In this document: piece by piece, positions 1,001 through 44,225 of the stretch
Layout: each line of letters starts with the position of its first letter
Position numbering within the stretch: position 1 is the first letter of the stretch
Assembly: GCF_964204645.1 (NCBI RefSeq)
Contig: NC_134025.1
Coordinates: 12,710,001 to 12,774,000 of the forward strand
DNA length: 64,000 nucleotides
DNA from: Tubulanus polymorphus
Taxonomy: Eukaryota; Animalia; Nemertea
Direction of reading: 5' to 3'
Translations under genes and position numbers: made by a program
Notes under the pieces: model-generated
The model's database searches: none
What the model saw: the letters and a program-made list of their open reading frames with translations, nothing else
What the model was told of the DNA's origin: nothing

Positions 1001-1601
1001 TTTTGCATCATGTGACTAATCAATTGCTGTGGGGAACACAGGCTCTACGGGGAACCATCTATCAGCCACATAGGAAGTGCGTATGCTATTGCACTTACAA
1101 CTGTCGTGGTGTTATGCGCCAAGTGGGAATATCGTGCCAAGTAAGAATTATCGGCGGAAGTACATGCCAGAGTAAGAATCAAAATGCAAACAACATCCTA
1201 TACTGAAACGTTGGCAATAGTAGGAGGCGCCACGGATACTTGCGCCAAGTTGGAATAACTTTTTCGACAAGTTTCGACTCAGCGATTTAACAGTTTTTTT
1301 CAGTTTTCAACATACAATATGATGTTCTTAGGTTCTACTGCTTGGGCATATTCTAAGAGGCCTTCAAAATACACTCGTGGTCTTGCTAATTATGGGCAGT
1401 CTTGTTATATGAACAGCGTTATTCAATCGGTTAAGTGTGTAGCAGAACATTTCAAACTGTTCTCTAAAAAGTCCGCAGAAAGCCAGAATTCAATGGAGCT
1501 TTTCAATAGATGTCGTAAGTATATATAAAGCCCATTTTGAAGGCTTTAAAGAATGGAAGTGGATATTTTGCCAACAATGCAGCATTATTTTAGTAAACCA
1601 A

Positions 1602-2086
1602 GTGGCTATTCGTACAGACACGTACGAATAATTCCGTAGGCTATTTGTACGCGCCCGTATGAATAATTCCGTAGGCTATTCGTACGCACCCGTACGGATT
1701 ACTGTGGAATTATTCGTACGGTCAGGCTAGTCAAAACATTCGGCTGACTGTCAGTGAGCTCAGTGGTCTAGTGGTATGATGCTGTGCTAGTTATTTACTG
1801 GCCCAGGTTCGAGTCTCGCTTGATCCACTCTATTGTTCTCTAACTATATTCTCCACACTTTCCTTGAATGGCGGGCGTTTATCGGCCAATCAGCGACAGT
1901 TATTAGCGTACAGATCCTTCACCCAGCACTGGCAGTGGTTGTCTCCACCAGTGATCTCCGTCGCTCTACGATCCTAGTGTAACCAATCCTGTGGTACATC
2001 AGACACTAAGATTCTTGGTGAAACAGATCCTAGTTCCGTATGAATAGCCTCCAGAGTAATCCGTACGGGTCCGTACGAGTAGCCAC
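1602..2086. mobile_element. MITE with ~45-bp TIRs and an internal tRNA-like module
   Basis: Left end gtggctattcgtacagacacgtacgaataattccgtaggctatt; reverse complement of right end gtggctactcgtacggacccgtacggattactctggaggctatt. Confidence 0.75.
1750..1828 (+). repeat. tRNA-derived (SINE-head-like) module, copy 1
   Basis: A-box-like agtggtctagtggta and B-box ggttcgagtc. No intact cloverleaf. A related copy is at 2236-2312. Confidence 0.6.
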
Positions 2087-5000
2087 AGCGATATGCTATT
2101 TTGCCAATGCCCAATGGCTATGAAATGTAACAATAAAATCGCGCCGGTTAGGGTGAGGTTTAGCCACTTAAGTGTCCGTTATTACCCATAGAGTTTTGGT
2201 AAAGGTGAGGCTGTAGTGAAAAATTACGGGTAGTTGTCAGTGAGCCCAGTGGTCTAGTCTAGTGGAAAGACGTTAGGCCAGTAATCTGGTGGTCCAGGTT
2301 CGAATCCCACTCTAGTCTATGCTCTTATTTTGTCTAGGCTAACTCTGTTCTCCAAACTTTCCTATGCAGCCGCAATTAGTCATTCAGAACGCGCCATTGG
2401 CAAAATAGTGTTAAGAGGAATAATACCGCATTGGCAAAATATTGGCTGCCTTTCTTATTATTAGACTATGTCATTTTTCCAATGACTTGTTTTGATTGCC
2501 TAATTGATGCTGCGCAAATGCAAAACTTTGAAAATTCAAGAAAATTTGAACAGATTTAGAGAAAATAGAGCGGGATTCGAACCCGGACCAGTGTATATAT
2601 CCTCTAAATATAAATATAAAATACGTTCTTGCAATCTGGCTGTAAGTTTTCAATTCATATAGCATTCAACGTATCGTATCTCAACCTTACCCTAACCCTT
2701 TCATCTCTCTAAGTGTAAAACGGACCCTTAAACTAACCCTAACTCCCTGGGCCCGGTTTTACATACAGGGATTAAGCCTCTAATTTGGGTTAGTTGCCCA
2801 ATTCGAATAAAAATTTTTAGGTTAATTTTCGATGCCCATTTCAAAAATGCAAATTAAGATATTTATCATATATCACCTACACATTTTTAGATTTAGGGCC
2901 TATTGAAAATCTCATTGGAGAAAGAATTGCAAAGAAAATACGGAACGATCAATTATACAATTTCATTGTACAACCAAAAAATCCTACGATATTTATGAAT
3001 GAAACCTTGTTCATGTTATAGGACTAATGCATTATGGGCAACTAATTCAGAATTATCTGAGATAATTTGAATTGGTTAATTATTCGCTAATTTGCGTTAG
3101 TGAAACAGATTTAATCATCAAATGATCTATGCCTAATTCGAAGAATTTTTGATTATCACCTTCGAATTCGAAGTTAACTGGCGTTCGTGAAACGACCACC
3201 GGTATTCAGACTAACTATAGATACCATATAGCCTATGCTATTATGATATATCTAACTGAAATATTTATCATCATCTATATATATTATTTTAAGTATCGCT
3301 ACTTTTCAGCTGCACCAAAATATACGGCCCCGTGACTTGACTTGGATGTCATTTGGGGCAGAGCCCTGTGAATATCAATGCCTGAGGAATAGCCTAATGC
3401 ATATCGGTTCAATTTTAGTCAAGTTACCTAGGCATATTTTTACCACAATTGCAAAATTGTCACCACTTTGCAAAATTGTAGCTCATTATGAGTTCTATGA
3501 TTGGATATATAGGCCTAATCATCATCATCAAATTTCGGTGAGGAGCCATAATTTGACATTATGCTTAGCCCATATAAAGGATGGGTACCGGTATATATGT
3601 TATCCTATGTGTATGACAACCTCCCTCTCCTGACTTGACGCGATGGAACTGAGCGCAGGAATACCAGCCAATTAGAGACCGAATGATCATAGTACAAATT
3701 TTGATTGCTACATTAGTGTCATTTGTATCATGTCACAAATATTTACCGGTAATTTCAAGTAGTTTCAAACGCAAACCAAACGTCCAGCATTGCAGTTGAC
3801 TGGACTAAAGATCTAGAAACGAAATTGGTAGAATTACGTAGTGAGCGGCCATCTTTATATGATGTCGCTTACACATTGTATTCAAAACAGAATCAGAAAG
3901 ATAAAAGTCTTAACGAAACTGCTTTTCAACTGGAAATATATTTCGCAATTCAAAATAATTTAAATCTATCCTCAAAATGCTCATGACCATGTGATCCAGT
4001 GCAGTTGCCAGTAATCGGAACCGGACAAAAGCAGGGAAGCAACTGGGAGGATCTCATATCCCGCTAATCAGCCTCAAGCCAGCCTTAAGGGTGGGATGAT
4101 AGTTAATTTGTCTAATCGTCTCACAGCCAAGCATTCCTATTGTTCATAGAATTGACACATAACATCTTTGATTTAGAGGTAAAGCAGGATAATTTCACCC
4201 AGACACTGGAGGATCTGTGTCTAGTTCTGCGAAGTACATCAGCAAATATTAGTCATGTAGTGAATCCTAGTGCCATGAAATGTCTTTTGCCTAGTACGTA
4301 TTTACTTTGATCAAAATTTCTCATTATACTGCAATTTTTAGTCCTTTGAAATAAAATATCTCTAATTCATAAACTAGATTAGTTGTGTAATTTGAGAATT
4401 AAAGTGTTTTTGACCTAATGTTTATATTTCAATTTCCTTTTCCTCACAGAATAATGGCAAAATGGTTGGTATATATAATCTTCCTATTTGTTTTTCATCA
4501 ATTTTCTTTGCTTCACATTGTCTATGTAAATACTCTACACATATAGGCTTCATCTCAGGGTATTAAGTATTAAGTAATCCACATGATTATGTCTCATTAC
4601 AATGCAAATGCTTTTTAACCCACTTGGGACTTAAATCCTAGCGGGCCTAATTTGTTCACTTTTCATTCATTGTTTGTAGACAGGCCCCAGTAATTTGTGG
4701 AAAATTGAACTGTAATTGATGCTTCAATGGTTTGTTTTGATATTAGGTTAATAGCTACTTTAGATGCATCTGGAGCCAAAAACTGGCCTGATCAAATTCC
4801 AGATGGCTGGCTGGGAAATCTTGAATATGCTTCAATGAAGTTCCTTGATATTTTGACAAAAAAAGGTCACTTGTGCCCTGAATTCTGAGACCTGTAGCTT
4901 CCTAATGGTAGTGATTATGGTTTGCCATTATAATGTGTTGAAATTCGTGCTGGGTGAGTTTCAAGGTACATAATTCGTTTCTGAGTATGATCACCAGGCG

Positions 5001-7402
5001 AATAACGGAATAATGTGGTATTTGATTATTTTCAGATTGTCAAGCATTTCGCCAGTAGGCGTGGTGTCCTAGTTGTGTGGTTGCACCAAAAGTCTTTTTT
5101 CACCTTATTGCAGCGATTTAGGAAAACATTTTATGTGCCTATCTCAGGAAAAGTGATCAGATGGGCTTATACTAGGAATAGCCTGTATCAAACACTTTTG
5201 ATATGATATTTAATTATAGTATGATTTCTTGCCAAACCAATGACAGTCACATAGGCGTTATTTTCTTGGAAATTCCATAGGTATCCCCTAATTTTGAGTA
5301 GGGTCTTAAATGACTAGAGCCTCATTGCCACTTGCTTCTGTATCTGAAGACTTTGAGGTGACCACAATGACCAGTGCAAATTGAATATTTCACTCCTATT
5401 TCATCTGTTTTCTGTTTTATATATGTTGCTTCGCTTCATGACTTTTATGCTATTCATGTATGTTATACACTACTATGATCAAAATATGTAGGTGATGTCT
5501 CGAGGAATGAGACCCTTGCCTATCTGTTCTATAATGAAGAGCTGGATGGTTTGGTGTTCATACACAACCGTGGTGAACTGGAAAAAAATGTGGTTTTGCT
5601 TCTTTCTCACTTCTTTCTTCAACTTTCCTTTACTGAACCAAACTGATTTTCACCCCATTTTATCTTAGATATAGGGCTCTACTCAAGACGTCAGTGTGAT
5701 GCCCATGAGTTCTTCATTCGTTGGATGAGTAAAATTGAAGATGAAAATTCAAGGTAAACAAAATGAATGAAGCAACGAGCGAATGAACGAATGCAATTAT
5801 GTTTATACTTATCAAAAAATTGAGGCTAGATAGATGATGAATATAATGTGTGTTTATTTTTTCTGTTCTGATTTTAAACAGATTGTTAAGTTTTTCCATG
5901 GTTCTCTTCAAACAAAAGGTATTTTAAGTAGCAAAGCTTTTCAAGCAATGATTCATTCATTTTTACTACACTTAATTTTCACATCAGTAAGCCCTGTTTG
6001 AATATTTTATGACTTTCTCTTTCAGTCATCTGTAGATCCTGTTCTACTGAATCAACACAAACTGATGGATTCACAAACCTCAGTCTATCACTAGGGGTGT
6101 GTAGCTGTGTTTTTGGTCCCTTAAACCGCTGAATATTTCTATATGTTTCCTATAAATAGTTCCTATATGACATTTGAGATTTTCTTTGTATTTCAGAAGG
6201 ATAAAGGAAAAGGAGTCACAACCCTTGTCTTGTTACTTAATTCATATTTTTGTAGTGAGGAACTGGATGACTATGAGTGTTCCCAGTGAGTTTGTTATGT
6301 TTATTTCATGTAGTGATCATAAGTACTGATTCCATATTTATAGGTATTATCTTTTAGCTATGATTTCATTTCCATCGTTTTTCATTGAAGTTGCAAATTA
6401 AAGGTTGCAAGGAAATCTACTAAACCTTTGAAGGCTCCTGAATGTTTAGCTATTCAAATTAACAGGTAAATACTTAATCTGTCAATTTGGTTAAACTGCT
6501 TTTGTGTAACTGAAAACACATTTTTTGAGGCACCCTGTAGAATGGTATTTTACGCATGGCATACGGTATGAACAGTATCTCTAGAATTGATTGGTGGAGT
6601 TATAACTAATAGACTGTCTTGTCCTTTTAAGATTCAGTAAGACATTGGAAAAAAGGAAATGATTTTGTGAGATTTGATGAAGTTCTTAGCTTCCACAACG
6701 AGGTATGCTCATTTACTGAAGATATTCTAGTTTTTTAGGAATACTGCACATAAATAACACTGTCACATATTTTTCAGAATTTTAAACTTTGCAGTGTTGT
6801 GGTTCATCAAGGCTCTTCTTTGGAAGGAGGACATTATATATCTTTTGTTTGCGATATTGATGGTAAATGGTTTGAAACAAATGACAGTAAGGTACTGTAA
6901 ATCCATTGATCATTTGCAACCAGGAATATTTTATCATTTATTGATTATTCATCAGACACCTGGCAGCTATGTCTTGAACATGAGTCAGATAACTAAGGCG
7001 AATCACCATTCTGACGCAGCACCTAATTCTTTAATCTGGTTCATGCCCATTCTGTCACATTATATAACAAAAACCAATGCAAAATGTGCAATTACAGGCA
7101 AAAGTGACTCAAAAGTTTTATTATCATAAAATAATCGCTGCGGACAAACCCTTTGGAACCACAGGAGCTCTATATAAAAAACAAGCATACATCCTGTATA
7201 TTTTTGTCATAATATCAAATGAGGACAGAGAAGTTAGTTCCGTTCATTTGCACAATATAACGTAACTTAATCTTTATTTTAGGTATTGAGAGCCAATAAG
7301 GATTGGGTCCTATCCCAGAATGCTTACATGCTATTTTATATAAAAGTACCAGTATGTGTTCTTTCTTATTTTGTCATATAATATTCAACTTTATGTAGTT
7401 AA

Positions 7403-7700
7403 CCCTTAACTTGCTGCAGGCTACTGAGTCGACACACTGGGGATCTGCCGTAGGCAACTGTAGTCAATAGCCCGGCCTATCTCGCATTAAAAGATTGTTT
7501 TTATGTCACAAGCGCCTCGCAGCGCGTTGAGCCTCTTCAGACATGGCAACTGCCTATACTCGTGAATCCGAACCCGGAAGTGATTTCACTTTTCGCGCTG
7601 GGCCCCCAAAAATGACCCCACCCAGTGTACCCCCTCTTTCAAAAATCGGAAGTTTAATTTCATCAACATGCAAATGATCTTGCTGCCAGAAGGTTAAGGG
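7403..7700. mobile_element. Non-autonomous piggyBac-like element
   Basis: TTAA on both sides (7399-7402 and 7701-7704). Termini CCCTTAAC...GTTAAGGG. Confidence 0.75.
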
Positions 7701-7736
7701 TTAAACTCGCCAGTAATGCACGATACAACGGTAATT

Positions 7737-8283
7737 AGGATTTAGGATGTAATATATATTTTTAATGAGTCTAAATATTATTTTTCAGACAAGGACAACA
7801 GCAGATAATTCACACCAACCCGATCCTCAGGTATGTGAAACATTTTACACGTTGATTTTTCTAAAAATGTGTCATTACTTGGAATTTAGGATGCAGTATA
7901 TATTTGTAATGAGTCTAAATATTATTTTTCAGACAAGGACTACGGCACATAATTCACACCAACCCGATCCTCAGGTATGTGAAACATTTTACACGTTGAT
8001 TTTTCTAAAAATTTGTCATAACTTGGAATTTAGGATGCAGTATATATTTGTAATGAGTCTAAATATTATTTTTCAGACAAGGACTACGGCACATAATTCA
8101 CACCAACCCGATCTTGAGGTATGTGAAACATTTTACACGTTGATTTTTCTAAAAATGTGTCATAACTTGGAATGTAGGATGCAATATATATTTGTAATGA
8201 GTCTAAATATTATTTTTCAGACAAGGACTACAGCAGATAATTCACACCAACCCGATCCTCAGGTATGTGAAACATTTTACACG
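7737..8283 (+). repeat. 144-bp tandem repeat (4 copies), each an intron plus a 42-bp phase-0 micro-exon (TRTTADNSHQPDPQ)
   Basis: Exons 7789-7830, 7933-7974, 8077-8118 and 8221-8262, each with a tttttcag acceptor and a gtatgt donor. Confidence 0.85.
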
Positions 8284-8522
8284 TCGCCCAGCCGCCCCTG
8301 TATGTGTTTATGAGTTGTAGGTTTAGATGTTGTATTTTGGGTGTCGGAAAATGGTCGGTTTCATGTGGAGATCAGTGTGACTTGTTTGAATCTTGAATCT
8401 TGCAATGGAGTCTGATCATTTTCACACCTTTAGATTATTGTATCGCTATGAAATTGTATGTGATGGCTAAGGATTAGAATGTTATTACCGGGTACGTATA
8501 TTTCTAATTATTCCATCCATCT

Positions 8523-8639
8523 GGGGCCCAGTTTCACAAAAAGGATTAAAGCCAAAATCGATCAAAAAAAGATAAACTGAATTAATGAAGAAATTAAATC
8601 GATTTAAGAGTTAAAACTTTTTGTGGAACTTGGCGGCCC
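8523..8639. mobile_element. Short PIF/Harbinger-like MITE
   Basis: ggggccccagtttcacaaaaa...tttttgtggaacttggcggccc form imperfect TIRs. Similar ends occur at ~2748 and ~52940. Confidence 0.45.
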
Positions 8640-8915
8640 ATTTTACTCTACTTTATTAGTGCGAGGATGTAGTGTATCATGCTAAATTTCAGTAGGCTAG
8701 GCCTACTTGTATCCAGTCATGTGCAATATGTACATAGGATTATTAAACTAAGATGAATGTATAGTTCTCTACTCATTTATGAATTGTATTCTTTTTTATT
8801 CGCATATTTTATTTGTAAAATTGTAAAATGAACAAGTTAACTATGAAATAATAATCGATATATTATGTTAAGTTTATAATTCTTCTCGTTTTCACTGTCA
8901 GGAGAGGAGGAAGCC

Positions 8916-9113
8916 AATGCCTAACGAGAGAAATCCCAGAATAGAATCAGCCCAAAATGAAAAGTTCTATAGCAAAGTGGTATATATTTTGAGCAACATA
9001 TATGCTAAATACTATTAGCCATCATCAGATTATACCGATGTATATAGAATTTTACTCAAGAACTTAACATTTTTGGCTGAATCTATTGTGGGATTTCTCT
9101 CATTATTCATATT
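8916..9113. mobile_element. MITE (inverted repeat)
   Basis: gagagaaatcccagaatagaatcagcccaaaatg is inverse to catttttggctgaatctattgtgggatttctctc. Confidence 0.6.
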
Positions 9114-11166
9114 GTTTATCTTTCAAGACTAAGTCTCTTTTGATTTGCTTATTTTATGTGTGAGACCATAGTAAGTGAGGGCAAGTCAAAGAGGCTGGTT
9201 GCAGTAGTGATGTGCTGGAGGCATTTGGAATGACACTACACCTCCGAGGACCAGAGAAGTAGGAGCCGGTGTTTGGATGACTGATCTCGTATCTTGTCAA
9301 GGACCCTGACTTGATTGAGTACCTGGCAGACACTCGTCCTGATTGGTCAAGTGACTTCATTTAGATAATGTAGTCACCTGGGAAAGATTTCGCACTCATC
9401 TCGGACACTAGTTTACCCCTTTTAGACCTTTTATTCCTGGAGTCGGCCATTATTCATTCATCAACCTTCAGAGGATGACATTTTCCCTTTTCACTACCAC
9501 TCCCCGGGACTGTTTGACGATGGCGGACCCTTGTAGATAGCCACGCCCTGACGAAGAAGCCTTTAGATTCTGGCGCATAGGATTTCGTTGATATTTTGGA
9601 CATGCTACATTGGCTTCACTGGCACCATAGGGACAATCACTATATGTGCGTACATATAGATATGTCAGCGGCTGATCCAGGGGTTTGCGCAGAGGGCACG
9701 TGCACCCCCCTAAGGACATTGCTCTTTTTTTAGAGTCTGAACCTTTTCGTGAGAAAGAAGAAAGAGCATGTGAAAAATCCCTGAAAATGTGTTGGCCTAA
9801 GCATTGTTGTCATTTACCGATGCTTTTATCTGCAGTCCTCTAGTTCATGGAGTTTCATCGATGTTCATTGCTGCATTTGGTTGAATGACTGGACTGGTTC
9901 CAGACGTACTCTGATTGCGCACCTAGTTTTTAAAGATTATAGCCCTTGATTTTTTTCCTCTTACACTCGCTTGTGTGCATCCATATTGAACTCACTTGTG
10001 TGCATCCATATTTGAATGTAGTTTATAGTTTTGTCAACCCTCTACATTTTATATTTGATAGGCCTCAAACAGTCGCACTAAAGCTTCTGTGTCATGTGAC
10101 CACATGCCAGATGATGATAAGTATGTTTTGAGAAATGACGTTTCCACTGAGACATGCTCATTAGAAAACTAGAATTTCATCCCATGTTAATGATAGATTT
10201 TCAGATACAAATCCTATAGATCATTCAGAGAAAGCACATGACTCTGCTAAGAAAGCATCATCTAAGTAAGTCTATCTATGAAACTTATTATATTCTAAAA
10301 GGTTTTTCAGGAAAAATTTCAACAGGTCTTGATAGTCTTAATGTTTAATAATTGACTGCATTATCGTAGGATACATCTCCTTGCTCGGAATTGTGGTCTT
10401 TTGTTCTCTCCCCACCACGGATAGTTTGATATTAAATTTAATATTTTCCCTTTATATTGGTACGTATGCATATTTTGTTAACCCAATCAATTGCACATTG
10501 GTAGCCCATGATATGGTATGGTTATGTTGAGTTAGAAGGCGATGGCTTCTGCTATATGTTAACCATGGAATATTATGGTATATATGCTCAATTGATTGGC
10601 ACTATGGCATTTAAAAGTCAGTGTCATTCATCTATTGCTGTATTTGTTCATCAGGGGGTGTTGAATATTGAAATTTTGGCTGTCAAATATTTTTCGAAGT
10701 TGTCAGTTTAACTAGTTTAACCAAGAAAACTTTATTGATTAAAAAAAGAGCACAATTGGTACAAAATATTATTCAATGCCCACAAATGCTGGTGGTTAAA
10801 CCTAAGATTCGCTTTATGGTTCAGTTTGTTTTAGGATACAAAATTGTTCATTTTATTACGTAAGATACTTGAGACTAAAAGCTGGCCAATTTATTCGCTA
10901 CAATAAATTTTCATTCATTTTATAACAGAATTACAGATGATGTGTAAAGATCTGATGTGAAAAAAAGAGGTAAGCTAAGATAGCATGGGTTATTCAGATA
11001 CATTCTCACCTTTGTTTTATAAAATACCTTTGTTTTATAAAATCAGAAATGATTTCCTGGTGGGAATGAATCTTTTTCCTTACTGCTAGGCCACAAATTA
11101 AAATGATTGGTTTCATAAGGCATTAGGCCTATGTATGAATGTGAATAGAGGTGTTTCATTTTTTAG

Positions 11167-14100
11167 CCAAAAATAGCTCGGTTATGGATAAAGAATATCT
11201 GGATGTTGTCAAACAGTTTCTTGAAAACCCAATGCATCCAGATGTTAAGAATTATTTTCCCAACAGCCAAAGCTTAGCCAAATTCCGACATCAGGTAAAT
11301 GTTCTCGTTGTGAATGCTTGACGACTTGTATCACTACAATTTTCTCATAATAGAACTGATTTATGAAGTGATGCTTCGTCTTATTTTGCAGGTCAAAACC
11401 AAAGGTTTTACTTTAAAAGAGGAGGAAAACGGTGATAAGAATGTAGTTGCACCATGCAAAAGTGATGTACGTATCTTACATGGAAAATATCATTTTATTG
11501 CAGTATGTACAGAAGTTATTCATTTGCTCCAAATGGGTTGTTTCAGGTTTCAAGGAAACTCAGAGTTATCCCTTTGGAAGATTTAGATCAAATCATATTA
11601 TCCTGTCACGAGGCTATTGGGCATGGTGGAGAGAATGCTACATTTAAAAAGGTAAAATTATTCCCTGAGGTTTTAGTTAATCATATCTTTAATCACTTAT
11701 TCAAAAGATCAACTTTCAGGTTCAAGAAAACTACTTCGGTGTCATTCGTATTCATGTAAGGAATACCTTGAAAAAATGCAAAGTGTGCACACTGAAATCA
11801 TCGCAAACTGGCAGAGCCCCAGTCATTCCGATCATTAGCCAAAATGTATTCGAAAGAATTCAGGTAAGACATAACTTTTATTTAAGGTCTGAGTACTATT
11901 ATCGTTAATTCATACATGTATATTCATTTCAGGTTGACTTGATTGATATGCAACGTCAAGAAACAGAAGGTTATCGCTTCATATTGCATGCTATTGACCA
12001 TGCCTCCAAATTTCATTTTCTGTGGCCCTTGAAGGGAAAATTTGCGACTGATGTGAAAGATGCTCTCAGGATCCTATTCAGTTTTACTGGGCTACCCAAA
12101 ATTCTTCAATGTGATAATGGAGGTGAATTTTCTGACCGGGAGCTGGGTGATCTTCTGTCTGAATGGCCCTCCAGCTGTAAAATTGTCCATGGTAGACCTC
12201 GTCATCCCCAGAGCCAGGGCTTAGTAGAACGGGGTGGGGTCATCGTATCGTGGCTGATATAATTGCCTCATTCAAAGCGTCTTTCACTGGAAAAGGAGAA
12301 TTTCCATGGCATCATTATTTACCACGAATTATGTGTAAGTAAAATTGAACACGATATCTTGATTAATTCATAATATGCTTCCCCTATATGCTCAATGTTT
12401 TTTGCTTCTTTAGATATGATCAACACTACGTATTCCACACGAATAAAATGTACCCCCTATGAATGTGTGTATGGGCAAAAACCCCCAAATATTGCACTTC
12501 AGGTAAAATTTGTAGTTACTTCAGCAAATGGTATTCATATCATTATTCAGTCCTTATAAGAAATTGTATTTGATTTCAGTCAAATGAACATAATGACGAA
12601 GAGGAGGGCAATGCAGAAGTATGTACTAATACTCACTAAAATCTATTTTAGGGCAGGGCTGTAGGAACCGGGGAGCCATGCCCCCCCCCCCATTTTCTGA
12701 CTCTTGCCTATGACTTCCTACATGCCTAGGGTAGGTCTCCATAGTACCTAGTGGCAGAAATGGTGAAACTGTGAGCTTATATCATTCCTAATTTCAACCA
12801 GGAAGTACTCAGAATGTACCTAAATGATATAATTTTTCAAAATTTTATGACCATTTAGTGCTTTGTGCCTGCTACGCCGTCATTATGGGCCACAATTCGT
12901 TCCTATGGCCCTGTAGGGTGTAGTAAGAAATTAAGTTTCAAATACAGTAGTATCACAAAGTCAAAATACCTTTCAAAATTAATCAACATCTTGTAAACAG
13001 AGCCAGGCTGTAGATATTATCTTAATGCATGTTTTTTTTATAATACTTACCAAGTATCAGTAATCCATATTCTTTTTCATAGGCCATAACAATTCAGAGT
13101 GATGAAGATATTACGGTGTGTACATGCTTGATTGATTATCTTGTGTATATATTCGATTTAATTTTAAATACAAATATGTCTATCTCATCTCCTGCAGAAT
13201 AAGGCTCATTGAAATCTTGTCCTGAGAAAAGATAACTGCCAACTTGCATTTTATAAAGGGATACTTACAGTATTTCATTAATGTAAACTTTGTGGCATTT
13301 CTAAGAGATGTATATTTAAAAAATTAACAATTTTTCAAGTGTCAGAAAATCGACATTTATTGCAAGTGCAGTGTTTACCAATTTTCATTCTGTATATCAC
13401 TCAACTTTTTTCAGATGGAACCAAATGCCTCAACCACTTCGCAAGTAAGCCTTTTTAACAATGCACAAAACTTGTCACTTTGCTATAACCTAAACTCTAC
13501 TTACTACATTTGGCCTTATTTTAAGCTGGCTAACCAATGCACCACTTCCATTCTAGGGATTTGATTTTAGTGAGCTGCCAATAAAGAGAGTTAAGGTTGC
13601 TAATGAGCTAGCAACTAAGGAAGCTCACCAAAAAATTAGGATGGCTGCTAACCTTGCCTCCTTAAAAGGCGCAAAAAGGATGTTGAAAAGGGGATACAAA
13701 GAACAACTAATATTCAAAGTTGGGGATTTTGTAACTGTGAAAATTCCTGAGCAAGACCGCCACAAAATAGATCTACGTAGACTCCCTGGTGTGGTAGTCC
13801 AAGTGAAAAAGTTTAAGAATGGAAACTTTTATATAATACGGTTTGTCAGATAATTTCATAAATCGTAAAGCAAAGTCTTAACAGCTCTATTCTTTATTCT
13901 GTTAATCCTCATTTTTAGAACCAAGTACGGAGTCTTAGATGTTGCCTTGCGAGCAGATGTGCTACAACGGTTTGTTGGGGAATTTGATATTCCTGTCGCT
14001 GGGTGGGGATCAGTTCCCAAATTGCCGATAAGAACAGCTGCGATGGCAATGTCACACTCTTTGAAACCAGCTAGCCGATGCCACTGCAAAGCAAATTGCT

Positions 14101-14173
14101 CGACTTTAAGATGTCTGTGTAAGAAGAGGGGTGTAATTTGTACAGCTAGTTGCCACTCAGGAAAGTCATGCGA
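11167..14173 (+). pseudogene. Ginger2/Tdd-type (KRBA2/SCAND3-like) DDE integrase/transposase with HHCC zinc domain, SH3-like segment and C-terminal CxC cluster; multi-exon
   Basis: Exons encode HEAIGHGG...CKVC (11547-11863); VDLIDMQ..IDHASKF..PKILQCDNGGEF..GRPRHPQSQGLVER (11933-12334); NTTYSTRIKCTPYECVYG (12414-12502); FKVGDFVTVKIPEQDR; and TKYGVL..CHCKANCSTLRCLCKKRGVICTASCH. No gag, RT or RNase H. Frameshift from a duplicated ggggt at 12231-12240. Confidence 0.88.
12654..12913. mobile_element. Non-autonomous CAG-terminated element with 5-bp TSD (hAT5-like)
   Basis: TIRs cagggctgtaggaac / gttcctatggccctg. taggg lies directly on both sides (12649-53 and 12914-18). Confidence 0.7.
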
Positions 14174-14305
14174 GTAAGTTTACATTGCATTCTCCATCTT
14201 ATTCATATTTTATATAGTATGTCTTATTGGTCATTCGATGTAATTTTCGCTTTCAATCATCTAAAGAAAAATTACATGTATTTGATATCAATCTGTGATT
14301 TTTAG

Positions 14306-17300
14306 AAATAATCATGTTATGAACAAAAATACAGAACAGTTAAATGTAAGTAATTGGTTATATTTTACAAACATATAACGTACTAATATAGTCAATGGTG
14401 TTTATGAAAGCTACCTACAGATTATTATTGAATAAGTTTATGATAAGTTTGAGACACTAGTGTATAATTAGCAAACGTTTGTTAACCAGTTAATAAGACA
14501 AACAGAAAAGTCTTTGATGTGATCTGTAACTAAATACAAATATCCTGTACATAGAACTTGAAATATGTTGATGATTAAATGTGAGATATTAGCATTATAT
14601 TTGAAGATTTTTTTTATGCAACCATTTCAAATCCCTATTATATACTTGATAATGTTCCCTATAATATTAGTACCTTTACACATTTTGTAAAACACAATCA
14701 GAAAAAGTAAAATTGTAGCCCATGACTTATTCTATGTTTGTGGTGAGTTTCGCGGACATTGGTTTCTATACATATTTACCAGGGGCATTGAATATTGAAA
14801 TTGTCAGGTTGCAATGCATTTCACTAAGTGGGTATGGTGTCACTGGACCCCTGGTTCATTTTCATTTGCCTACAGTGTCAGTCCCTTGCGGTTCACGATT
14901 CGGATTCATCGGAAACAAGTTTTGAAATGCTGTAAGTTTTTGGCCAGGAAAATATCTTACTTTATTTGTCCTAATCATGGAACATTTAAAGTTGATAGTT
15001 AAATTGATGATTTTTCACCATTTTAGGGATGACTTAACTGTACCCGAAGAGATCAGACATTGTGTTGATCAAATCGTCAATGAGGTAAAGTTTTTAATTG
15101 TTTCTGTTTTTATTAGTGTATGTGTTCTACACTTCAGATCCATATGAAAGAATGTTTGAAATATGGCGCTTAACAATCAATTTTATCATTCATTCTTGTG
15201 TCAAATTAATAATAGGAATTGAATTTAATACATTTAGTCATTATAGACATATTACTTTTGCTGTTCCTATCAAAGTTTTGCTGAATGCTTTTTGCACTGT
15301 AACATATTAATGTGAATCATCATTATTATTATTATCAAAGGAGTATTTTGAGATGATTTGCATTTGAACATGATCTTCGTTTGATTCTTTCTTTTTTATG
15401 CAGTATCAGCTTGATGAGTTAAATATGAATGAATCGTAAGTTGATGCATGCCATAAATGTATCAACAACTTTGAAACTAATTTACACATATATTTCCATT
15501 TCATTTTTTACCAGTGTATTGTGTATTTTTCTTTTAGCCTAGTACCAGTGAAAAATAAGAAACAGAACAATGATGATGGACATATTGAAAAAAGAAAAAT
15601 TTGTAAAGAGTAAGTATTAATTGTGCAGTGGATACCAATTGTAGTAAATTTAATCAAATTTATAGAAAATCAATAACTCAACAAACTCTTCAAACTAGAT
15701 GGTTTACATTCATGCTTCAACATACGTATGCAGGATTGATACCTAAAACCAGATGTGTTGTACATTGACTTAAAAAATGATATTAAGTTTTATCACTAAG
15801 TAATTTGGGTGAATTCTTTGAAGGGAAAATATAAACGAATTCTAGCATTGATTGAGTTTTGCTATAGCATTAATGAGAAAACTAGATCATTAGACTCTGG
15901 ACCTTGGAAATCGGTCAGCATTGCTAAGTATCTCCTAACAAGGTTATCCTTACACAGCACTATATCAATGACTTTGAAAATCAATACATTATTTTATTTC
16001 TTTTGTTGAAAATTTTGTCCACTTTTAGAAGAAGAACTTATCGAACGGTCTCCCAGGTATGTGAAAAATCTAATAAAGCGCCATATGCGCATGAGTTGTG
16101 AAAACAGAAATTGATAGTGGTATGGTATGCTTTATTAATGATTTAACCCCATTTGTCTGAAGTTAAAGCGTACAAATATCCAGAAAAGAAGGCAAAATTT
16201 CGATATACTGCGTAATTTAACGGATGAAGACAACAAACGTCCATTATTGTGCTTTTGTAATGCACAGAAAAATGAGTAAGTGATCAGCAGCATGAACATG
16301 AAATAATGGTAACAATGGATAACTAGCTTTTTGGGAAAATGATTACCGAAAAAATAATGATGACTCTTGTGGTGAAGTTGGAACGTTTTGTCATCTTTGC
16401 AGTAATTTTGATCTTGATTGACTTCAAGATGTAGCACATCTTTTTATTGTCAACATTTACATGACTGAGCCAAAAATTTCACTGAAATTATGCATCAGAA
16501 AGCTAGGAGTTGGTATAAAATGTCAAAGGTTCTTGATTGTTGAAATTGTATATTAAAAACGCCCTAATGATATCATTTAATCTACATGTCTATGTGAATG
16601 AACCACCCTTGAAGAATGTTGTGTTTGGATCTGCAGAGGTCTTCACCACTCATGGCGCATATTAGCCCTTTATTCATTCTCACATGTGCTTCACCTTACA
16701 ATCTCCCCCCCCCCCCCACATAGCTTATATGTGACTTATTATGGTTGTACTTCCAGTCAAGACCAATACAAAATACGTAACTGCATTATATTACATTGCA
16801 AGATATGTTATTTCTTTTTTACCTGAAACAAAACCACTTAAACTCTGAATCAAAGGATTTAATTTTATAATTTCTTTTTGCCTTCATTATTGTATGAAAT
16901 TCAAACCAGTATACCGTTACTGAATATGATACATTGAAGATATCAATAATTCTTAATTGAAAACTATTCACTCCATAGATTCAAAAACTAACTCTCTTCC
17001 TATTTTATAGCAACTATCATGTTATGGAATGTTTGAATGTAAGTTGTAAATGGCTCATTCATCCTGGATGTGTCGGTCTGGAAGAAAAAGATTGTCATTT
17101 GATTAGAACATACACATGTCCCATACATATCGTCGAAACAAAGCTCAGTGCTTATAATCAGGTAAAATCATATATACGTACTACTACAAACTGTCCATCA
17201 TTTATAGCATCAACCAATAATTGTCAAATTGATCCTGCCAGTAGTTATTCTACAGAAATGTCTAATTTGGTCTCTTTGCTTTTGTTTCTTCTAGGTCAAG

Positions 17301-19076
17301 GAAGAGGTCAGATTGTCCATTACTTCTGCGTGTATTATCTGTTTTTCCAAAAGTAGCTCGAGGTTATTAATCTTAAGTTCATGGTTAACATTACATTTTG
17401 TAAATTCAGTTTCTTTGATGCTTACATGTTATGTATTTATTCATTAAATTTAGAATGTCTGATAGCATTGTATGTATGATTTGTTCGCAAAAGCTGAATA
17501 AACTCATTGATGATGAAAACGATGTAGACGATTCAAGAATGATTCCTTTGTCATATTTGTATCGCAGCAATGGGAAAGTGAGTATATATGTCTTGAGCCC
17601 TCAGATGGCTAATCTATAGCCAACTTCAGTATAGCATAGATCTTCTATTCCTACTTTCTATTATTGAATATTAGTTAAGATCCTTAAACATATCGGTTTC
17701 AACTAGTCAGCAGACGGTGTTGCTGTAGTCTTTCATAGATTTTGATCCCATTGAGCAGTGGCATGGTGTCCCGTTAATATGTCTATAGGACTTTCAAATG
17801 TACACCACTCCAACTCTCTATTATACTTTCAGGTTCTCCTTGAGCTCAGATATGATATTGAGAAGATGTTCAGTCTACCAAGCATGTAAGAACAAAGTTT
17901 CATGACAGGAGATTCTGAAAATTTGATCGATTTGGCTAATTTTTGAAAAAAAGCATCAGCTCATGTACATCTAGGGATTTAATACAGATCTGAATCTTGA
18001 CCATAGTAGCGACCCATATTATGGATGAATTAATAATCAACATCCATAATTTCTATGAATTTCTGATCTAAAGCTTAAGGCAGAAAATGGAAGTGCCAAG
18101 TTCATGTAATCATCATCTGATGGACTCTAGAGAAATTCATATCATTATGACATCCCATTTGTGCCATAATTTTAGTTTCTCTTGTTATTTGCAATTGTTT
18201 AACGATAAAGATAATTGCTCTATGCATTCAGCTTGCAGGAGGAAAATATTTTGTCTGATAATGCGTATGGTGCTGGTGTTGTCGAAAATAATGTCAGCTG
18301 TGTCGTTCAACTGATTGCTGAGTCACTTTTTGTAAAATTTACAGTACATCCAATGTAAGTTTACTCAAATCACATAAATATTTGAACACTCTCACAGATT
18401 ATTTTGGTAAAGCAATGTTTCGTACTACTGAAAGAGCATGTTGCACTCGGTATTCAAGTTCAAATATTAAAACATCATTGAATAAAACATTATATCTCAC
18501 GGTTTGTTTGTACAACCCTCCAATAATTTAACCTTCAAAATACAGTTGGGTCAACAGTACAAATATTTGCTTTAAAGCCGTTAAACTATCATTTTCAGAA
18601 TGGTGTATTCTTACTCACAAATGGAAGTTCCATTCATGGCACCAATTCATTTAGTATCCAAAATTCTTCAAAAGAGATTAAGGTAGGTATTTCATTGCAT
18701 TTGTAAATGATTGTATTAAAATTTCAATTCCTGAATCCCTGTATGACTGGTATACCAGTTCAATGTATTTAAATTTTTGTCTTCACTCAAATGTGTTTGT
18801 TAGGTACAGATCTAAGATTCAAATTTATACATATATGGATAGATAGATATGAAGTTTTTTCTTATTTGATTTCTCTCATCTTTCAGTTCTTCATCAGTAC
18901 GTGCAAGAATAAGGATACACATAATTAGATCCCTGGTGGCAAGATATTTTGGTATCAGTGATAACCAAGCTCATGAAGTCTGTGCTGCGACGTTAGGAAA
19001 AAATACAGCTGAGCGGTACAACAGATTGGCAAATTTTAAGATTGAAAATTACAATATAAGGCCACTTAAAAGTTGA
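14306..19076 (+). CDS. 3' exons of the integrase gene: linker, PHD finger, CxxC pair and an unknown C-terminal domain
   Basis: LCFCNAQKN (exon ending 16275) splices to MECLNVSCKWLIHPGCVGL..YTCPIH (17011-17161), giving a C4HC2H PHD. Then CIIC, CMIC, and phase-compatible exons at 17833, 18232, 18599 and 18887 ending ...NYNIRPLKS* (TGA 19074-19076). Confidence 0.72.
14700..14855 (+). repeat. Fragment of the dispersed 'ccagggggc' Helitron/Helentron-like repeat family
   Basis: accaggggcattgaatattgaaattg...ggtgtcactggacccctggtt matches 57840-57921 and the reverse of 25001-25130. Confidence 0.6.
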
Positions 19077-19559
19077 TTTGTAGATTCTCAGCAATTCTGC
19101 TGACATACGTCGTTAAGTGTTATCCAATATCGTTGACGGAATGTCAAAGTCGAAGAGCCTCTGTGAATGGTTGTAATATTTTGTCGATAGAAATTACGTC
19201 CGCATCAGGATATTTCCTTTTTAGCCCACTTGAGACTTAAGTCCCACCAGATTATTGTGCTCACTGTTCATCCGTTGTCTATCTTCGCATTTATCCATCC
19301 GTCCATATAGGGAATATGGCATTGCTGAACTTAGCACTTACACACTTTTGAAGTTTTGAAGGGAGATTTTGAAAACGCTTTAATCAATTATCTTCTATCT
19401 ATCAAAATTGGACTGACCTGAGATGGTCCTCCTGTGGCCTAAATTCATGTACATGTACATATATATATTATTAGTAGTTTAAACAGATTACTTATAGGGA
19501 TTCATAAATGTATTACCAATGGACTGATGTCTACTTGTATGTATGTATGACACATTTTT

Positions 19560-19720
19560 AAGGCATGGAGGACGGCCATTAGACGAATACTTGATTTACC
19601 GCTGCGCACCCATTCTCGATTACTACGAACATCCAAAGTATCAAAAAACTCTTTCAATATTATTTTGAATACTTGCAGTTATTTAGCTGAGTCAGGTAGT
19701 GGGTCAGTATGCTATATATT
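19560..19720 (+). mobile_element. Small non-LTR retrotransposon (LINE) ORF2 C-terminal fragment
   Basis: Translates KAWRTAIRRILDLPLRTHSRLL, which resembles the W-R-x-A-x-R-R...LP-x-RTH motif after the RT in invertebrate LINEs. Confidence 0.45.
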
Positions 19721-20107
19721 AATGCAATATTAATTTTTATCTTGCATTACTAAACCAAGATAGATGGTCTCACACGCCTTCTTCCATGCCTCCTGTTCAG
19801 ACTAATGACGTCCAACAAGCTGTAGCTACTGGTATACGATTTCATCAATTAATTCTCGAAAACCGATGTGCATGAGAGAAATATTGTACAGAAGATAATC
19901 GAAGATTGTATTAATTAGCGTTTTTTTTATATATGTTTTTGATACGCTGTATTAGTTTTCATTCCTTAATAATGCTTTAAGTGGAAAACCGATAATTCTG
20001 TTTTTTTTATAATAAATTGTATCGTTTTGATATTTGAACTGTTTAGCTTTGTGGAACTTATATTGAACTCTTTTGCTAAGTTTACCTCGTCAGTTATTCG
20101 TGCATTA

Positions 20108-20288
20108 CAGTGGAACCTCGTTATAGCAAACTCGAAAACAACGACTCATCGGATATAACAAATATAGAATTTTGTCCCAAGTAAGAAAGATAACTATTAA
20201 TTTCATACTGGATATAACGAAACAAACTATCGGTAATAACGAACATATTTTCTGGTCCCATGAACCTCGCTGTTACGAAGTTCCACTG
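20108..20288. mobile_element. Tc1/mariner (pogo/Tigger-like) MITE
   Basis: TA|CAGTGGAACCTCGTTATA...TGTTACGAAGTTCCACTG|TA. Confidence 0.85.
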
Positions 20289-21134
20289 TATTATAGAATA
20301 AACTTAGTAGACGTTTTGATTGGATTTTTTGTTTCAGTATTTAGGGTCCCCTAACTTATGTCATTGCCTTCATCTGCCGTCTGGAAATTTACTCTGGAAC
20401 TTAATTCACATGCTACAGGGATGTAGCCATGCATAATTTAAAGCGAATCCCACAGAAATAACGAAAACGTCCAAAACAAGGTCCTAAAAATGTTTCCTTG
20501 AGCTAGTCTTTTACTCAAGTGAGCAAGTTTCTGTGTGGTTCTATGGTTAAACCGATCCTTTTGTATTCGTGTGAAATATGGGGATATGAAAACCTGAAAA
20601 TCTTAGAATGGTTCACCTAAGTTTTGAAAGTATATACGTCTTAATAATGCGACACCAAATACATGATATATGGAGAGTTAAATATATGTGTATAAAAAAA
20701 ACCGTAAAATCTGTGAACTAACCTTGTTTTTAAAAATGGGAAAATTTATCTAGCAAGATATACCATAGACTTCAGTATTTCAAAAGTTTTCAATCTTAAA
20801 TGATTAGCTTGTATGAAAGGTATACTGGAAGAATGTGGAATGGTCGATGTTGGGGCACACCAAAATATCCGAATATTCAATATGTTTAAGAATCTATTAA
20901 ACTACGACTAACCGACCAATTTATTCAACATTGGAATTCAGACTGCTTAACTTTTTCAAAAGCCGTAACATATCTTGAAATCAAACCAACTTTTAACCAC
21001 AAATAACTAGAACTTATCTTTTTAAATTTATTTTTTTCAAACCCAACTATCCATAATCATGAACACGCTTTTTTATATAAATGACAAAAAACACCCGGTA
21101 CGTTAAGTTATTAAAATATAAAACAAGATTAGTT

Positions 21135-21222
21135 AAGTCCGCTGCACACGGCATAACAAGACACATCGAAAACGTTTTTCACGAGGAAAAAACTTTTTTT
21201 CGGTGCCTTGTGCAGCGGACTT
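21135..21222. mobile_element. Tiny MITE
   Basis: aagtccgctgcacacggca / tgccttgtgcagcggactt. Confidence 0.6.
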
Positions 21223-24200
21223 TACTATATGTATAAAGTTTTAAGATGCAATGTGGTAAACCACTAAAACTTCAAACGCGAAATAAGCCTGCATTTATTC
21301 ACTCACAAAAATGGTGTCAGTCATCGCTGTCTTGAATATGAACTATTTAATTTTCAGCCTATTTACCATGTTGACCGATAATGCCTTAAAAATGTGTCAT
21401 ACATACATACAAGTAGACATCAGTCCATTGGTAATACATTTATGAATCCCTATAAGTAATCTGTTTAAACTACTAATAATATATATATGTACATGTACAT
21501 GAATTTAGGCCACAGGAGGACCATCTCAGGTCAGTCCAATTCTGATAGATAGAAGATAATTGATTAAAGCGTTTTCAAAATCTCCCTTCAAAACTTCAAA
21601 AGTGTGTAAGTGCTAAGTTCAGCAATGCCATATTCCCTATATGGACGGATGGATGAATGCGAAGATAGACAACGGATGAACAGTGAGCACAATAATCTGG
21701 TGGGACTTAAGTCTCAAGTGGGCTAAAAAGGAAATATCCTGATGCGGACGTAATTTCTATCCAGACTTTTGATCCTACGGTTTGCAAAAATTCCCTCAGA
21801 ACTGCAAACTGCTGAAAATGTTTGTCGTGAATCTCATTGACATGAAGGTTACTTTCCTCCAGCCATGAACCTACTTTGCGTGCCTCTGTACCGAACCAAA
21901 TATCAGGGTAGTTCATTTATATCAAGAATAAGCAAGCAAATTACATATCAAATTTCATAGATTATATTATAAACCAACCTGGGTTTTTTGAACAAACCGT
22001 CTGTGGCTGGTGATTCTAGCTGTGAAAACTACTTGACTATAGGTCATGCAGGCGCAATGAAAAATGAAAGTTTGGGAATTAAATCCTCGAATTATGGTGG
22101 GAAAAGTCTACATCTTCCCCCAAAAATGACTGTCATGTGTCTTGATTTGGAATGTTCTTAATTTTTACCATATCATTCACCTTGTGGAGGCATATTTTTG
22201 ACCCAAACAAATGTGTAGATAACTATTGGTCCAGCACCTTAAACTTTCCTTTAACATTTAAAAATTTAGAAAAATTGTGCATGCCATATAATATTCACCA
22301 AATTGATGCAGCCAATGTACTTTATGACGAGTATCGAAACGCTGTATCATTTTGATCTGATGTTTCTAATGAATGTTAGGACCAATTGAACGCCTAAACT
22401 TGCGGTTTTTAAATAATCTAATTTAGAATGCCGCAATATCTATTGATTCTTTATCAACGCGCAATGGATCCTATCTTAATCAATCCGATTGCGCTCCTTA
22501 AAGACAGGCTTACTAGCTGGGCCTGAATATTTAAATTTCCTCTATCTAGCTTATGTAACTGTTATTGAACAATCCTTCAAACATGGATAAAGCCTTATGT
22601 AAAATCTTAATCATTGCAATTAGTGTAAAAAGTCTTACTCTTCAAAGGTCTATATTATCACTCAACTTATTTCATGAAATATTAATAAAAGAAATCATAG
22701 TCGAACAAGGTTCTTAATTTTTCAATGTGGGTTTTCCTAGTCAGTAACCTGATCCGGGCCTAATCATTACACCGACACACACTTATACTACAGAATATAT
22801 AGCCCACATTCGATAATGACAATGGTTTTCTATGATATGGGTGCTTCTTTCAGGACCCCATAGCGATCTGACTTCAAATTTGAATTTTGTTTTAGTTGTG
22901 ATTTTGTTATGGATTTATCGATCATTCAACTCTAGCCAAAGTGATGTGATATGTATTAGTTGGCATAGGCAGGGTTGGTATGTTTGCCTCAGTTTAACAC
23001 ATACATGTATTTTGAATTCAATAGGGAGTACACTATAGCGTAGTTAGTCCCATGAATTACTATATATGACCATTATCAATTTCAAAAATTATAATTTTGC
23101 GTGTATCTTTATTCATAAAGGTACATATCTCCCTGTTCATTCTTGTCACAAACTGAAGATAGTGTACGTTTTATTTGAGTGAGCATCGACTTGATAGTGT
23201 TTGTTGATGTTTTTGCAACAATTTGATTCTGAGCAGCTGAGCACTAGAGTAGGCCTATTGTCTCGGTCGTGCCAGAAAATTTGAAAAAAAAATACAAGCG
23301 CTCAGATTGCAGCAGATACGTTTTTTCGGTAATCCAACTGTTCCCCAGGCCTAGTTGCAGTAACACATGCCAGTATATAAACTTACCACACGATTGAATA
23401 TGATATAATAGGAAGTCTGGAAAATGATTGGTTCGGCGTTAAGGTTCGGCGCATATTCGCTCGAAAACGCGTAACCATAGAAGTTCAATCAAATTATTCT
23501 GTTAGTAGATAGAAAAATATGATTATCTCCTATTCTTGATTGTCATATCGTCCGCATACAAAGCCGTCACTTCAAGAAATAGAAATATTGCAACTCCGAT
23601 AACGAGGAAGGCCTATATAATTTTGAAATGAAATCGCCGTTTCCCAAAAGAAATCAAAGTCAAACTGAAAGCAGATGAATTTAGGAGCCATCTCATTTTA
23701 CATGAAGAATACCGAATCTGGGAGGATGATTGTAGGCCTACGAACCGCATTGTTAGAAATCACCTTATGATATCCAATCAATTTTTGAAAATTGCTTTAG
23801 GTGACGAACAAAATTTCTCTAATATTAAACATTTCATGAAAAAAACTTTATACAAGACCAAGACAAATCATTAGTTGATGGCGTAGGGGAAATTGAAACT
23901 TCCAAAAATTCAGCTCATCAAAATACCATGACAAAAAAAATCAAGTTGCGAGCGCGAATGTTTAACATTTATACGGAATTTGAATTATGAATGAAGCATT
24001 TGGGGATGTTAGGCCTAATTCTGTTCGTAAATCCTAACAGCGCATTTCTACAGCGTAACGATTTATCTTTCCAGAAAGTAAGCGGTTGGCTATAACTCAC
24101 AATTTATCATCAAAACATGGAATTATAAAATATTCCTAATTTTTGATGGGTCCCGCAACTATATATATGATGTCTTGATATTTTGGGAAAAAGAAGATGC

Positions 24201-44200: not shown

Positions 44201-44225
44201 TTTAATGAAGGAAGTGAGAGTTCTT

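What the first reader, a model, noticed from the sequence alone, without database searches (positions are those of the whole stretch)
1332..19076. Intron-rich gene apparently fusing a USP deubiquitinase, a Ginger2/Tdd-type integrase and a PHD finger
Seen: colinear plus-strand GT-AG exons encode a USP catalytic domain with Cys box, finger CxxC pairs, His box, ND and AYMLFY, and no stop follows it. Then come micro-exons, HHCC+DDE integrase, CxC, PHD and a final domain. No gag, RT or LTR. Known: Ginger-type DNA transposases are described with OTU, Ulp1 or PHD add-ons; I do not know of a C19/USP fusion. Inference: a transposase that reads chromatin (PHD) and removes ubiquitin (from histones or from itself) at the integration site. 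Caveat: the exon chain between 8262 and 11167 is not phase-resolved, and this copy has lesions (6650s frameshift, 12231 duplication, probable stops near 5056 and 10945).
Basis: partly seen in the sequence, partly recalled or inferred. Interest (0 to 1): 0.88.

Follow-up and report, generated by a model that had tools for sequence, protein, structure and literature searches.

The report
Giant Ginger2 transposon carrying a deubiquitinase
A 23.5-kb, intron-rich DNA transposon, present in several near-identical copies in what is likely a ribbon worm, carries a gene for a ubiquitin-removing enzyme in front of its integrase-type transposase; the enzyme is likely made mainly as a separate protein and is predicted to shield the transposase from the host's ubiquitin system.

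Summary
A 41-exon chain reads in one frame as USP - linker - H2C2/DDE integrase - CxC - PHD-like finger - unknown tail (1,351 aa, X at three breaks). Read depth rises 3-8-fold at the left end and gene models 98-99% identical lie on six sequences. The integrase core has Ginger2 motifs. An RNA-like run shows splicing from the integrase to the last exon. The fusion itself is not shown: all four public USP models and an RNA contig read through the donor at 8262 into a stop, no USP-to-integrase joint was displayed, and the integrase RNA contig appears to carry the 10945 stop. So: USP and transposase travel together (about 95%); separate proteins as the main products (about 55-60%); a fused isoform possible (about 35-40%). 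No USP-bearing Ginger was found in nine literature searches; it is over three times longer than the Ginger elements tabulated in PMC2836005.

The parts
1106..1109 (+). Left target-site duplication GTGG
   Evidence: Same 4 bases follow the right end; single-copy X1 contig stops aligning at 1109
1110..1154 (+). Left terminal inverted repeat, begins TGTTA
   Evidence: 33 of 47 columns match the right end; best of 62,695 positions; depth jump
1110..24631 (+). Whole Ginger2-type element, 23,522 bp
1319..7351 (+). USP (C19) catalytic domain in 10 exons: 1319-1514, 4150-4293, 5669-5753, 5866-5918, 6026-6096, 6197-6285, 6391-6465, 6632-6702, 6778-6891, 7283-7351
   Evidence: Pfam UCH; exons from 5669 on match public models P0117-P0119; first two exons inferred from phase and motifs only
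7789..8262 (+). Four 42-nt phase-0 micro-exons in a 144-bp tandem repeat (linker)
   Evidence: 3-4 of them used in P0117-P0119, P0128
8263..8313 (+). Read-through of the last micro-exon donor to TGA 8311-8313: end of the USP-only form
   Evidence: 4 of 4 public USP models; X4 contig 8233-8597 at depth 26.3
8902..8979 (+). Candidate phase-0 linker exon (overlaps a hairpin repeat; unconfirmed)
   Evidence: Best-looking candidate exon between 8263 and 10061, open only in the needed frame; repeat I23
10062..10969 (+). Linker exons 10062-10120, 10197-10265, 10929-10969 (stop at 10945 in this copy)
   Evidence: In P0001 and P0107; last two in X4 record 18
11167..12502 (+). Integrase: H2C2 zinc finger and DDE core (D613, D672, E710 of the chain); 5-nt duplication at 12231 in this copy
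   Evidence: rve and Integrase_H2C2; spliced in X4 record 18
12580..14345 (+). Acidic micro-exons, C-terminal integrase region without GPY/F, CxC cluster (13919-14173), exon 14306-14345
   Evidence: matches Ginger2/KRBA2-like relatives up to the CxC
15027..16056 (+). Linker exons 15027-15084 (alternative to 14306-14345), 15404-15435, 15538-15609, 16029-16056
   Evidence: both routes in frame
16163..17161 (+). PHD-like finger split over exons 16163-16275 and 17011-17161
   Evidence: an RNA joint 16056>17011 skips the first half and shifts frame
17295..19076 (+). Cys-bearing and helical tail of unknown family, six exons, stop at 19074-19076
   Evidence: six GT..AG joints in X4 at depth 59-133; no family or fold found
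19077..19993 (+). 3' untranslated region (AATAAA at 20011)
   Evidence: X4 record 22, 18885-19993, depth 133
24587..24631 (-). Right terminal inverted repeat, reads TGTTG from its end
24632..24635 (+). Right target-site duplication GTGG

Best explanation
This is one copy of a 23.5-kb Ginger2-type DNA transposon with a USP deubiquitinase gene and an integrase-CxC-PHD gene on the same strand and in the same frame, and it likely makes a free deubiquitinase plus a transposase as its main products, the former predicted to protect the latter from ubiquitin-driven removal. Shown: ends, target duplication, several near-identical copies, domain order, splicing of the integrase-to-tail exons, intact catalytic motifs. 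Inferred: most USP transcripts run through the donor at 8262 and stop at 8311-8313 (a ~394-aa protein); the transposase mRNA is separate; splicing 8262>8902/10062 would give a ~1,350-aa fusion as a minor or ancestral form. Inferred from known families: the DDE core cuts and pastes the element at its TGT...ACA ends, and the USP fills the slot that OTU or Ulp1 proteases fill in Ginger1 and VTD/OTU fill in Helitrons. The window's copy is broken in both genes and would move only in trans.
For: Ends: 24631 ranks first of 62,695 positions for likeness to the left end, with TGT and the GTGG duplication. Copies: X1 contig depth ~36 up to 1109, then 286-322 from USP to integrase, 200-240 further on; X5 reads 6-9 deep in the flank, 19-29 inside; models 98-99% identical to the chain on six sequences. 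Ginger2 core motifs match the Ginger2 rows and not the Ginger1 rows of PMC10045372 Data S3 (by eye); no GPY/F. RNA: record 18 of X4 accounts exactly for the exons from 10197 to 14345; 7 GT..AG joints in the 3' part. Separate USP: 4 of 4 models end at the read-through stop; X4 contig 8233-8597 at depth 26 against exon depth ~18-20 and intron background 5-7; no USP in 116 integrase-set proteins. Role of transposon DUBs: proposed in PMC2836005 and PMC9741609.
Against: The 8262 donor is identical to donors that are used in the repeats upstream, an in-frame acceptor follows, and about 62 codons upstream of the integrase Met stay open over three introns in copies without the 10945 stop, which looks like a single reading frame kept by selection. 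Only 15 of 183 joints were displayed, all at high depth, so low-depth USP-to-integrase joints could not be seen. X4's kind is not on record (spliced contigs make it RNA-like), it is one run, and it may be the evidence behind the public models, so the two are not independent. Contig depth is a poor measure of expression. No promoter for a second mRNA was located. The two Cys-box exons were not covered by the RNA lay and are in no public model found. No drop in depth could be read at the right end (bins too coarse, repeat beside it). No activity was measured.
Confidence: 0.58

Rival explanations
1. The working product is one ~1,350-aa USP-integrase-PHD polypeptide; read-through at 8262 is intron retention or an off-switch.
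For: 41-exon chain open in one frame; strong phase-0 donor and in-frame acceptors; open linker upstream of the integrase; start codon only 209 bp from the left end, as for a single transposon gene; Ginger1 proteases are fused; an intronless Gypsy pol, P0191, has a USP directly before its integrase.
Against: 4 of 4 USP models stop at the read-through; read-through contig is as deep as the USP exons; 0 of 5 integrase models start in the USP; the X4 integrase contig covers 10945 with no other letter, so it appears to carry the stop.
Confidence: 0.33
2. The USP exons are passive cargo: a captured host or viral gene that rides along without a role in transposition.
For: Gene capture is common in related elements (GingerRoot, 22 of 77 elements); 0 of 80 related integrase loci show a USP.
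Against: The domain is whole with all catalytic residues, is spliced, and has no close parent: highest identity 34% in the tree, long branch, whereas captured fragments in GingerRoot are partial and 79-98% like their parent. The 80 loci are short (median 2.5 kb).
Confidence: 0.2
3. A domesticated host gene, spread by segmental duplication rather than transposition.
For: About 40 introns and 23.5 kb are unlike described Ginger elements; KRBA2 and SCAND3 show that Ginger2 transposases get domesticated.
Against: Inverted ends with TGT...ACA, exact 4-bp duplication, sharp depth boundary at 1109/1110, copies on six sequences, several breaks confined to some copies.
Confidence: 0.04

Closest known systems
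Ginger2/Tdd DNA transposons (Bao, Kapitonov, Jurka 2010, PMC2836005)
   Same: H2C2 + DDE integrase without GPY/F, TGTNR ends, 4-bp duplication, core motifs like Ginger2-1_HM, -LS, -BF
   Different: 23.5 kb against 2.7-6.7 kb for the autonomous elements tabulated; about 40 introns; short imperfect inverted repeats; carries a USP, a PHD-like finger and an unknown tail; target GTGG, not the AT-rich preference
Ginger1 with OTU, Ulp1 or PHD (same paper)
   Same: Integrase-type transposon that carries a ubiquitin-like-modifier protease and sometimes a PHD
   Different: Other integrase group; protease there is OTU/Ulp1, C-terminal and fused; 0-4 introns; CCGG/CCGT targets
Helitron VTD/OTU deubiquitinases (PMC9741609)
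   Same: Transposon-borne DUB; there shown active on ubiquitin chains and proposed to protect transposition proteins
   Different: Rolling-circle elements; other DUB classes
Trichomonas vaginalis XP_001314237.1 (cited in PMC2836005)
   Same: Transposase domain with Peptidase C19 in one protein
   Different: Transposase_11 (IS4-like) rather than integrase; not shown there as a delimited element; sequence not examined here
KRBA2 / SCAND3 and 'KRBA2-like' invertebrate proteins (PMC3575427)
   Same: Same integrase group; the public models of this element carry these names
   Different: Mammalian genes are single-copy and domesticated; this is a multi-copy element with ends
Gypsy pol P0191 (unnamed ENA proteins, found here)
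   Same: USP placed directly before an H2C2/DDE integrase
   Different: LTR-retrotransposon polyprotein without introns; its USP does not group with this one, so likely an independent gain

Membership tests
Ginger2/Tdd | H2C2 zinc finger plus DDE integrase core | tested here: met
   Pfam Integrase_H2C2 E 1e-6 and rve E 5e-9 on P0108; D613, D672, E710
Ginger2/Tdd | No GPY/F motif | tested here: met
   No GP[YF] in the 1,351-aa chain
Ginger2/Tdd | No YPYY motif before the zinc finger | not tested
   No profile of the motif on hand
Ginger2/Tdd | TGTNR termini | tested here: met
   TGTTA and TGTTG
Ginger2/Tdd | 4-bp (Tdd: 5-bp) target-site duplication | tested here: met
   GTGG at 1106-1109 and 24632-24635; one site only
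Ginger2/Tdd | Terminal inverted repeats (about 45-300 bp in the paper's table) | tested here: met
   About 45 bp, imperfect: 33 of 47 columns; rank 1 of 62,695
Ginger2/Tdd | Preference for RTATAY targets | tested here: inconclusive
   The one site seen is GTGG; a preference needs many sites
Ginger2/Tdd | Groups with named Ginger2 transposases in a tree | tested here: inconclusive
   Quick tree of 103 cores places it among the search hits that include KRBA2-like proteins, apart from two Gypsy integrases; no Repbase Ginger1/Ginger2/Polinton rows were available; motif match by eye to Ginger2 rows
Ginger1 | GPY/F motif; CCGG/CCGT target; C-terminal OTU or Ulp1 | tested here: not met
IS3EU/GingerRoot | 6-bp duplication, mostly TA..TA ends, no HHCC (PMC10045372) | tested here: not met
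   4-bp duplication, TG..CA ends, H2C2 present
Polinton/Maverick | 6-bp duplication, protein-primed polymerase, no H2C2 finger | tested here: not met
   No further long ORF in 1110-24631; H2C2 present
Gypsy LTR retrotransposon | LTRs, gag, RT, RNase H | tested here: not met
   No long direct repeat at the ends; no such ORF inside
USP / Peptidase C19 | Cys box, QxDAxEF, His box and Asn/Asp | tested here: met
   model TM 0.85-0.89 to USP clusters
USP / Peptidase C19 | Cleaves ubiquitin conjugates | not testable with these tools
   Needs a probe or chain assay
PHD finger | C4HC3 zinc ligands | tested here: inconclusive
   Last ligand is His; Pfam below cut-off on the half exon; weak PDB hits to PHF2/PHF8
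H3K4me3-reading PHD (PHF2/BPTF type) | Aromatic cage with Trp two residues before the His ligand (recalled) | tested here: not met
   Leu stands at that place in the alignment to PHF2

The most novel reading that the evidence does not exclude
The active form is a single USP-integrase-PHD polypeptide: a transposase with a tethered USP that removes ubiquitin from itself or from nucleosomes at the insertion site, with intron retention at 8262 as a switch between a free DUB and the fused enzyme; together with the Gypsy pol P0191 this would make 'USP directly before integrase' a repeated invention.
Probability: 0.35. Interest if true: 0.8.

Novelty: new variant of a known kind. Interest (0 to 1): 0.62.

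Why it matters
Transposons of several classes carry ubiquitin or SUMO proteases, and why they do is open. This element adds the USP class to the Ginger superfamily in a family whose copies are 98-99% alike and still spliced, so the role of the protease can be tested directly (excision or insertion with and without the catalytic Cys). It also stretches what a cut-and-paste element can look like: 23.5 kb and about 40 introns, which public annotation splits into several apparent host genes named SCAND3-like, KRBA2-like and uncharacterized. Such elements are probably miscounted as genes elsewhere.

Tried and rejected
No whole genome was held, so copies could not be mapped and no second target site was seen. 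No listed run was on record as RNA; X6 and X7 held only one small repeat piece. Exact-pattern searches for the right end failed; a first candidate end at 20109 was rejected as the end of a small nested repeat with a poorer match. Candidate exons 4747-4865, 5036-5152, 5492-5589, 10370-10392, 10835-10859, 13198-13269, 15666-15725 were left out: not needed for the frame, in repeats, or absent from models and from the RNA accounting. A stop I first read at 6093 was a frame error of mine; the difference is silent. A search with the Cys-box exon found no protein of 106-2000 aa. Idea that the tail is a tyrosine-recombinase end (HxxR...LG...Y look, recalled): no Pfam, PHROGs or Atlas support, and the 62-aa model gave best Z 5.1 with no such fold listed; inconclusive. 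Viral contigs: four giant-virus USPs at 29-41%, none for the integrase, no integrase near those USPs. The USP tree (139 of 152 rows kept, FastTree) gave no supported donor. The careful integrase tree did not finish; the quick tree was read (103 of 116 rows). Earlier findings: none returned.
Full report
Observation. The window was read and translated in three frames. Pfam on 14 single exons found UCH on 2 (E 1.3e-5, 7.4e-9), rve on 1 (4.6e-9), and weak Integrase_H2C2 (0.016) and PHD_NSD (0.006) hits. From splice-site and phase tables I built a 41-exon chain from ATG 1319 to the stop at 19076: 1,351 aa with no internal stop when three breaks (6655, 10945, 12231) are read as X. Forty acceptors are AG except one (before 5866), which other copies have intact (19 of 19 reads differ from the window there). 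Catalytic motifs are complete: Cys29, QCDAHEFF, His280, Asn296/Asp297; H2C2; D613, D672, E710.

The element. Reads showed where the unit begins: a contig at depth 36 aligns up to 1109, and contigs at 286-322 cover USP to integrase, 240 and 200 further on; raw WGS reads are 6-9 deep at flank sites and 19-29 at most sites inside. The tool warns that contig depth is no copy number, so I read this as 'several copies'. Position 1110 begins TGTTA after GTGG. Scoring the first 45 bases against the reverse complement of every downstream position put 24631 first of 62,695, with TGT, 33 of 47 columns alike, and GTGG right after it. The element is 23,522 bp. A fall in depth at the right end could not be read. 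The rest of the window holds no second copy.

Other copies. The integrase exon is 100% identical to proteins that NCBI names from Tubulanus polymorphus, so the host is likely this ribbon worm. Five integrase models (P0001, P0002, P0107-P0109) and four USP models (P0117-P0119, P0128) lie on six sequences, one of which may be the window's own; on two sequences both kinds occur (no coordinates given). Seven of the eight models compared are 98-99% identical to the chain where they align without gaps, or differ by skipped pieces. The breaks are not family-wide: 13 of 17 reads lack the extra base at 6655, 38 of 39 lack the duplication at 12231, 8 of 12 lack the stop at 10945.

RNA. No run was on record as RNA, but X4 has spliced contigs. 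Seven GT..AG joints run from 16056 to 18887 at depth 58-133; six are predicted introns and one skips exon 16163-16275. Record 18 (1,689 nt, depth 22) is accounted for exactly by 29 nt of exon 10197-10265 and all exons to 14345, which adds exon 14306-14345 as an in-frame alternative to 15027-15084. Bin arithmetic gives about 18-20 for the USP exons. Against a fusion: an unspliced contig 8233-8597 at depth 26.3 runs through the donor at 8262, where intron background is 5-7; 4 of 4 public USP models do the same and stop at 8311-8313; 0 of 5 integrase models reach the USP; and record 18 covers 10945 with no other letter, so it appears to carry the stop. For a fusion: the donor is the same sequence as donors used upstream, both 8262>8902>10062 and 8262>10062 are in frame, and the linker upstream of the integrase Met is open in P0001 and P0107. 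Only 15 of 183 joints were displayed, none of them at the depth of the USP or integrase exons, so the absence of a USP-integrase joint from the table is uninformative. The contigs do not link record 18 to the 3' contigs in one molecule.

Family. PMC2836005 (parts 1-3 of 5 read) defines Ginger2 by H2C2 + DDE without GPY/F and YPYY, TGTNR ends and 4-bp duplications, and lists OTU, Ulp1 and PHD only for Ginger1. The window's core matches the Ginger2 rows, not the Ginger1 rows, of the alignment in the supplement of PMC10045372 (passages seen; by eye). PMC3575427 (part 1 of 3) ties KRBA2/SCAND3 to Ginger2, which fits the names of the hits. My tree lacked named Ginger references. GingerRoot, Ginger1, Polinton and Gypsy features are not met (passages).

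The USP. phmmer over 1.84 billion representatives gave no relative above about 41% outside this species' models; in a tree of 139 domains it is a long branch without a supported partner. PDB hits are Ubp8-type, USP36 and USP15 at E 5e-18 to 1e-13; Atlas feature hits include viral USP clusters. The donor is unresolved. A USP profile hit 0 of 116 integrase-set proteins, and an integrase profile hit 1 of 152 USP-set proteins: P0191, a Gypsy pol with a USP between RNase H and integrase, four members of 1,737 aa. 0 of 80 related metagenome loci carried USP sequence, while the same scan found six USP exons in the window; those loci are short (median 2,529 bp; 17 of 80 reach 5 kb).

Mechanism. Shown: anatomy, copies, splicing of the transposase side, intact motifs. 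From established knowledge: DDE integrases of this class join TG...CA ends to staggered target cuts, leaving the 4-bp duplication. Inferred: the USP counters host ubiquitin control of the transposase or of repair at the site, as proposed for Ginger1 proteases and for Helitron VTDs, which were shown to cleave K48/K63 chains (PMC9741609, passages). I favour stabilisation of the transposase over histone deubiquitination because the USP seems mostly free and the finger lacks the cage Trp in register and ends in CxxH.

Novelty. Nine searches of the held library (listings) showed no Ginger element with a USP, none of this size and no Gypsy pol with a USP; passages of PMC6431247 and bioRxiv 2021.09.26.461848 add none. 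The library lacks most subscription papers and Repbase reports, which may hold such entries. A transposase with a C19 domain is mentioned for Trichomonas. Verdict: a new variant of a known kind; the element is solid, the fusion is open.

Noticed in passing
P0191 (cluster with P0269-P0271; ENA contigs of 7.4-8.2 kb): Gypsy-type pol (protease, RT, RNase H, USP, H2C2, rve) of 1,737 aa in four members, with a complete USP between RNase H and integrase; no paper found.
   Followed up: partly
window 21381-21761: Inverted 99.5% copy of 19186-19566 (in the element's 3' UTR); 29 X5 reads and an X2 contig skip it, so it is present in only some copies.
   Followed up: partly
window 16163-16275: An RNA joint at depth 58 skips this exon, removing half of the PHD-like finger and shifting the frame; the exon is also covered by RNA contigs.
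   Followed up: partly
window 3756-3950 (+): MADF-like fragment in intron 1 (Pfam E 0.065), in a high-depth stretch; likely a piece of another transposon.
   Followed up: no
window 36643-46624 (-): Gypsy-type LTR retrotransposon with ~1-kb LTRs 99-100% alike and gag-, protease-, RT- and integrase-like ORFs plus an extra Pro-rich ORF at 39247-40182.
   Followed up: no
window 28050-30414 (-): Four ORFs that look like pieces of a hAT-type transposase (recalled resemblance, not tested).
   Followed up: no
window 50093-51334 (+): Two intronless ORFs in a 27% GC stretch; the first has an HNH-like end (recalled resemblance); may be virus-derived.
   Followed up: no
window 54150-56764, 59510-60802, 63611-64000: 31-bp satellite arrays inside a larger repeated unit with shared flanks.
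   Followed up: no
P0036: A nimavirus 'integrase-like protein' falls among the Ginger2/KRBA2-like cores in the tree.
   Followed up: no
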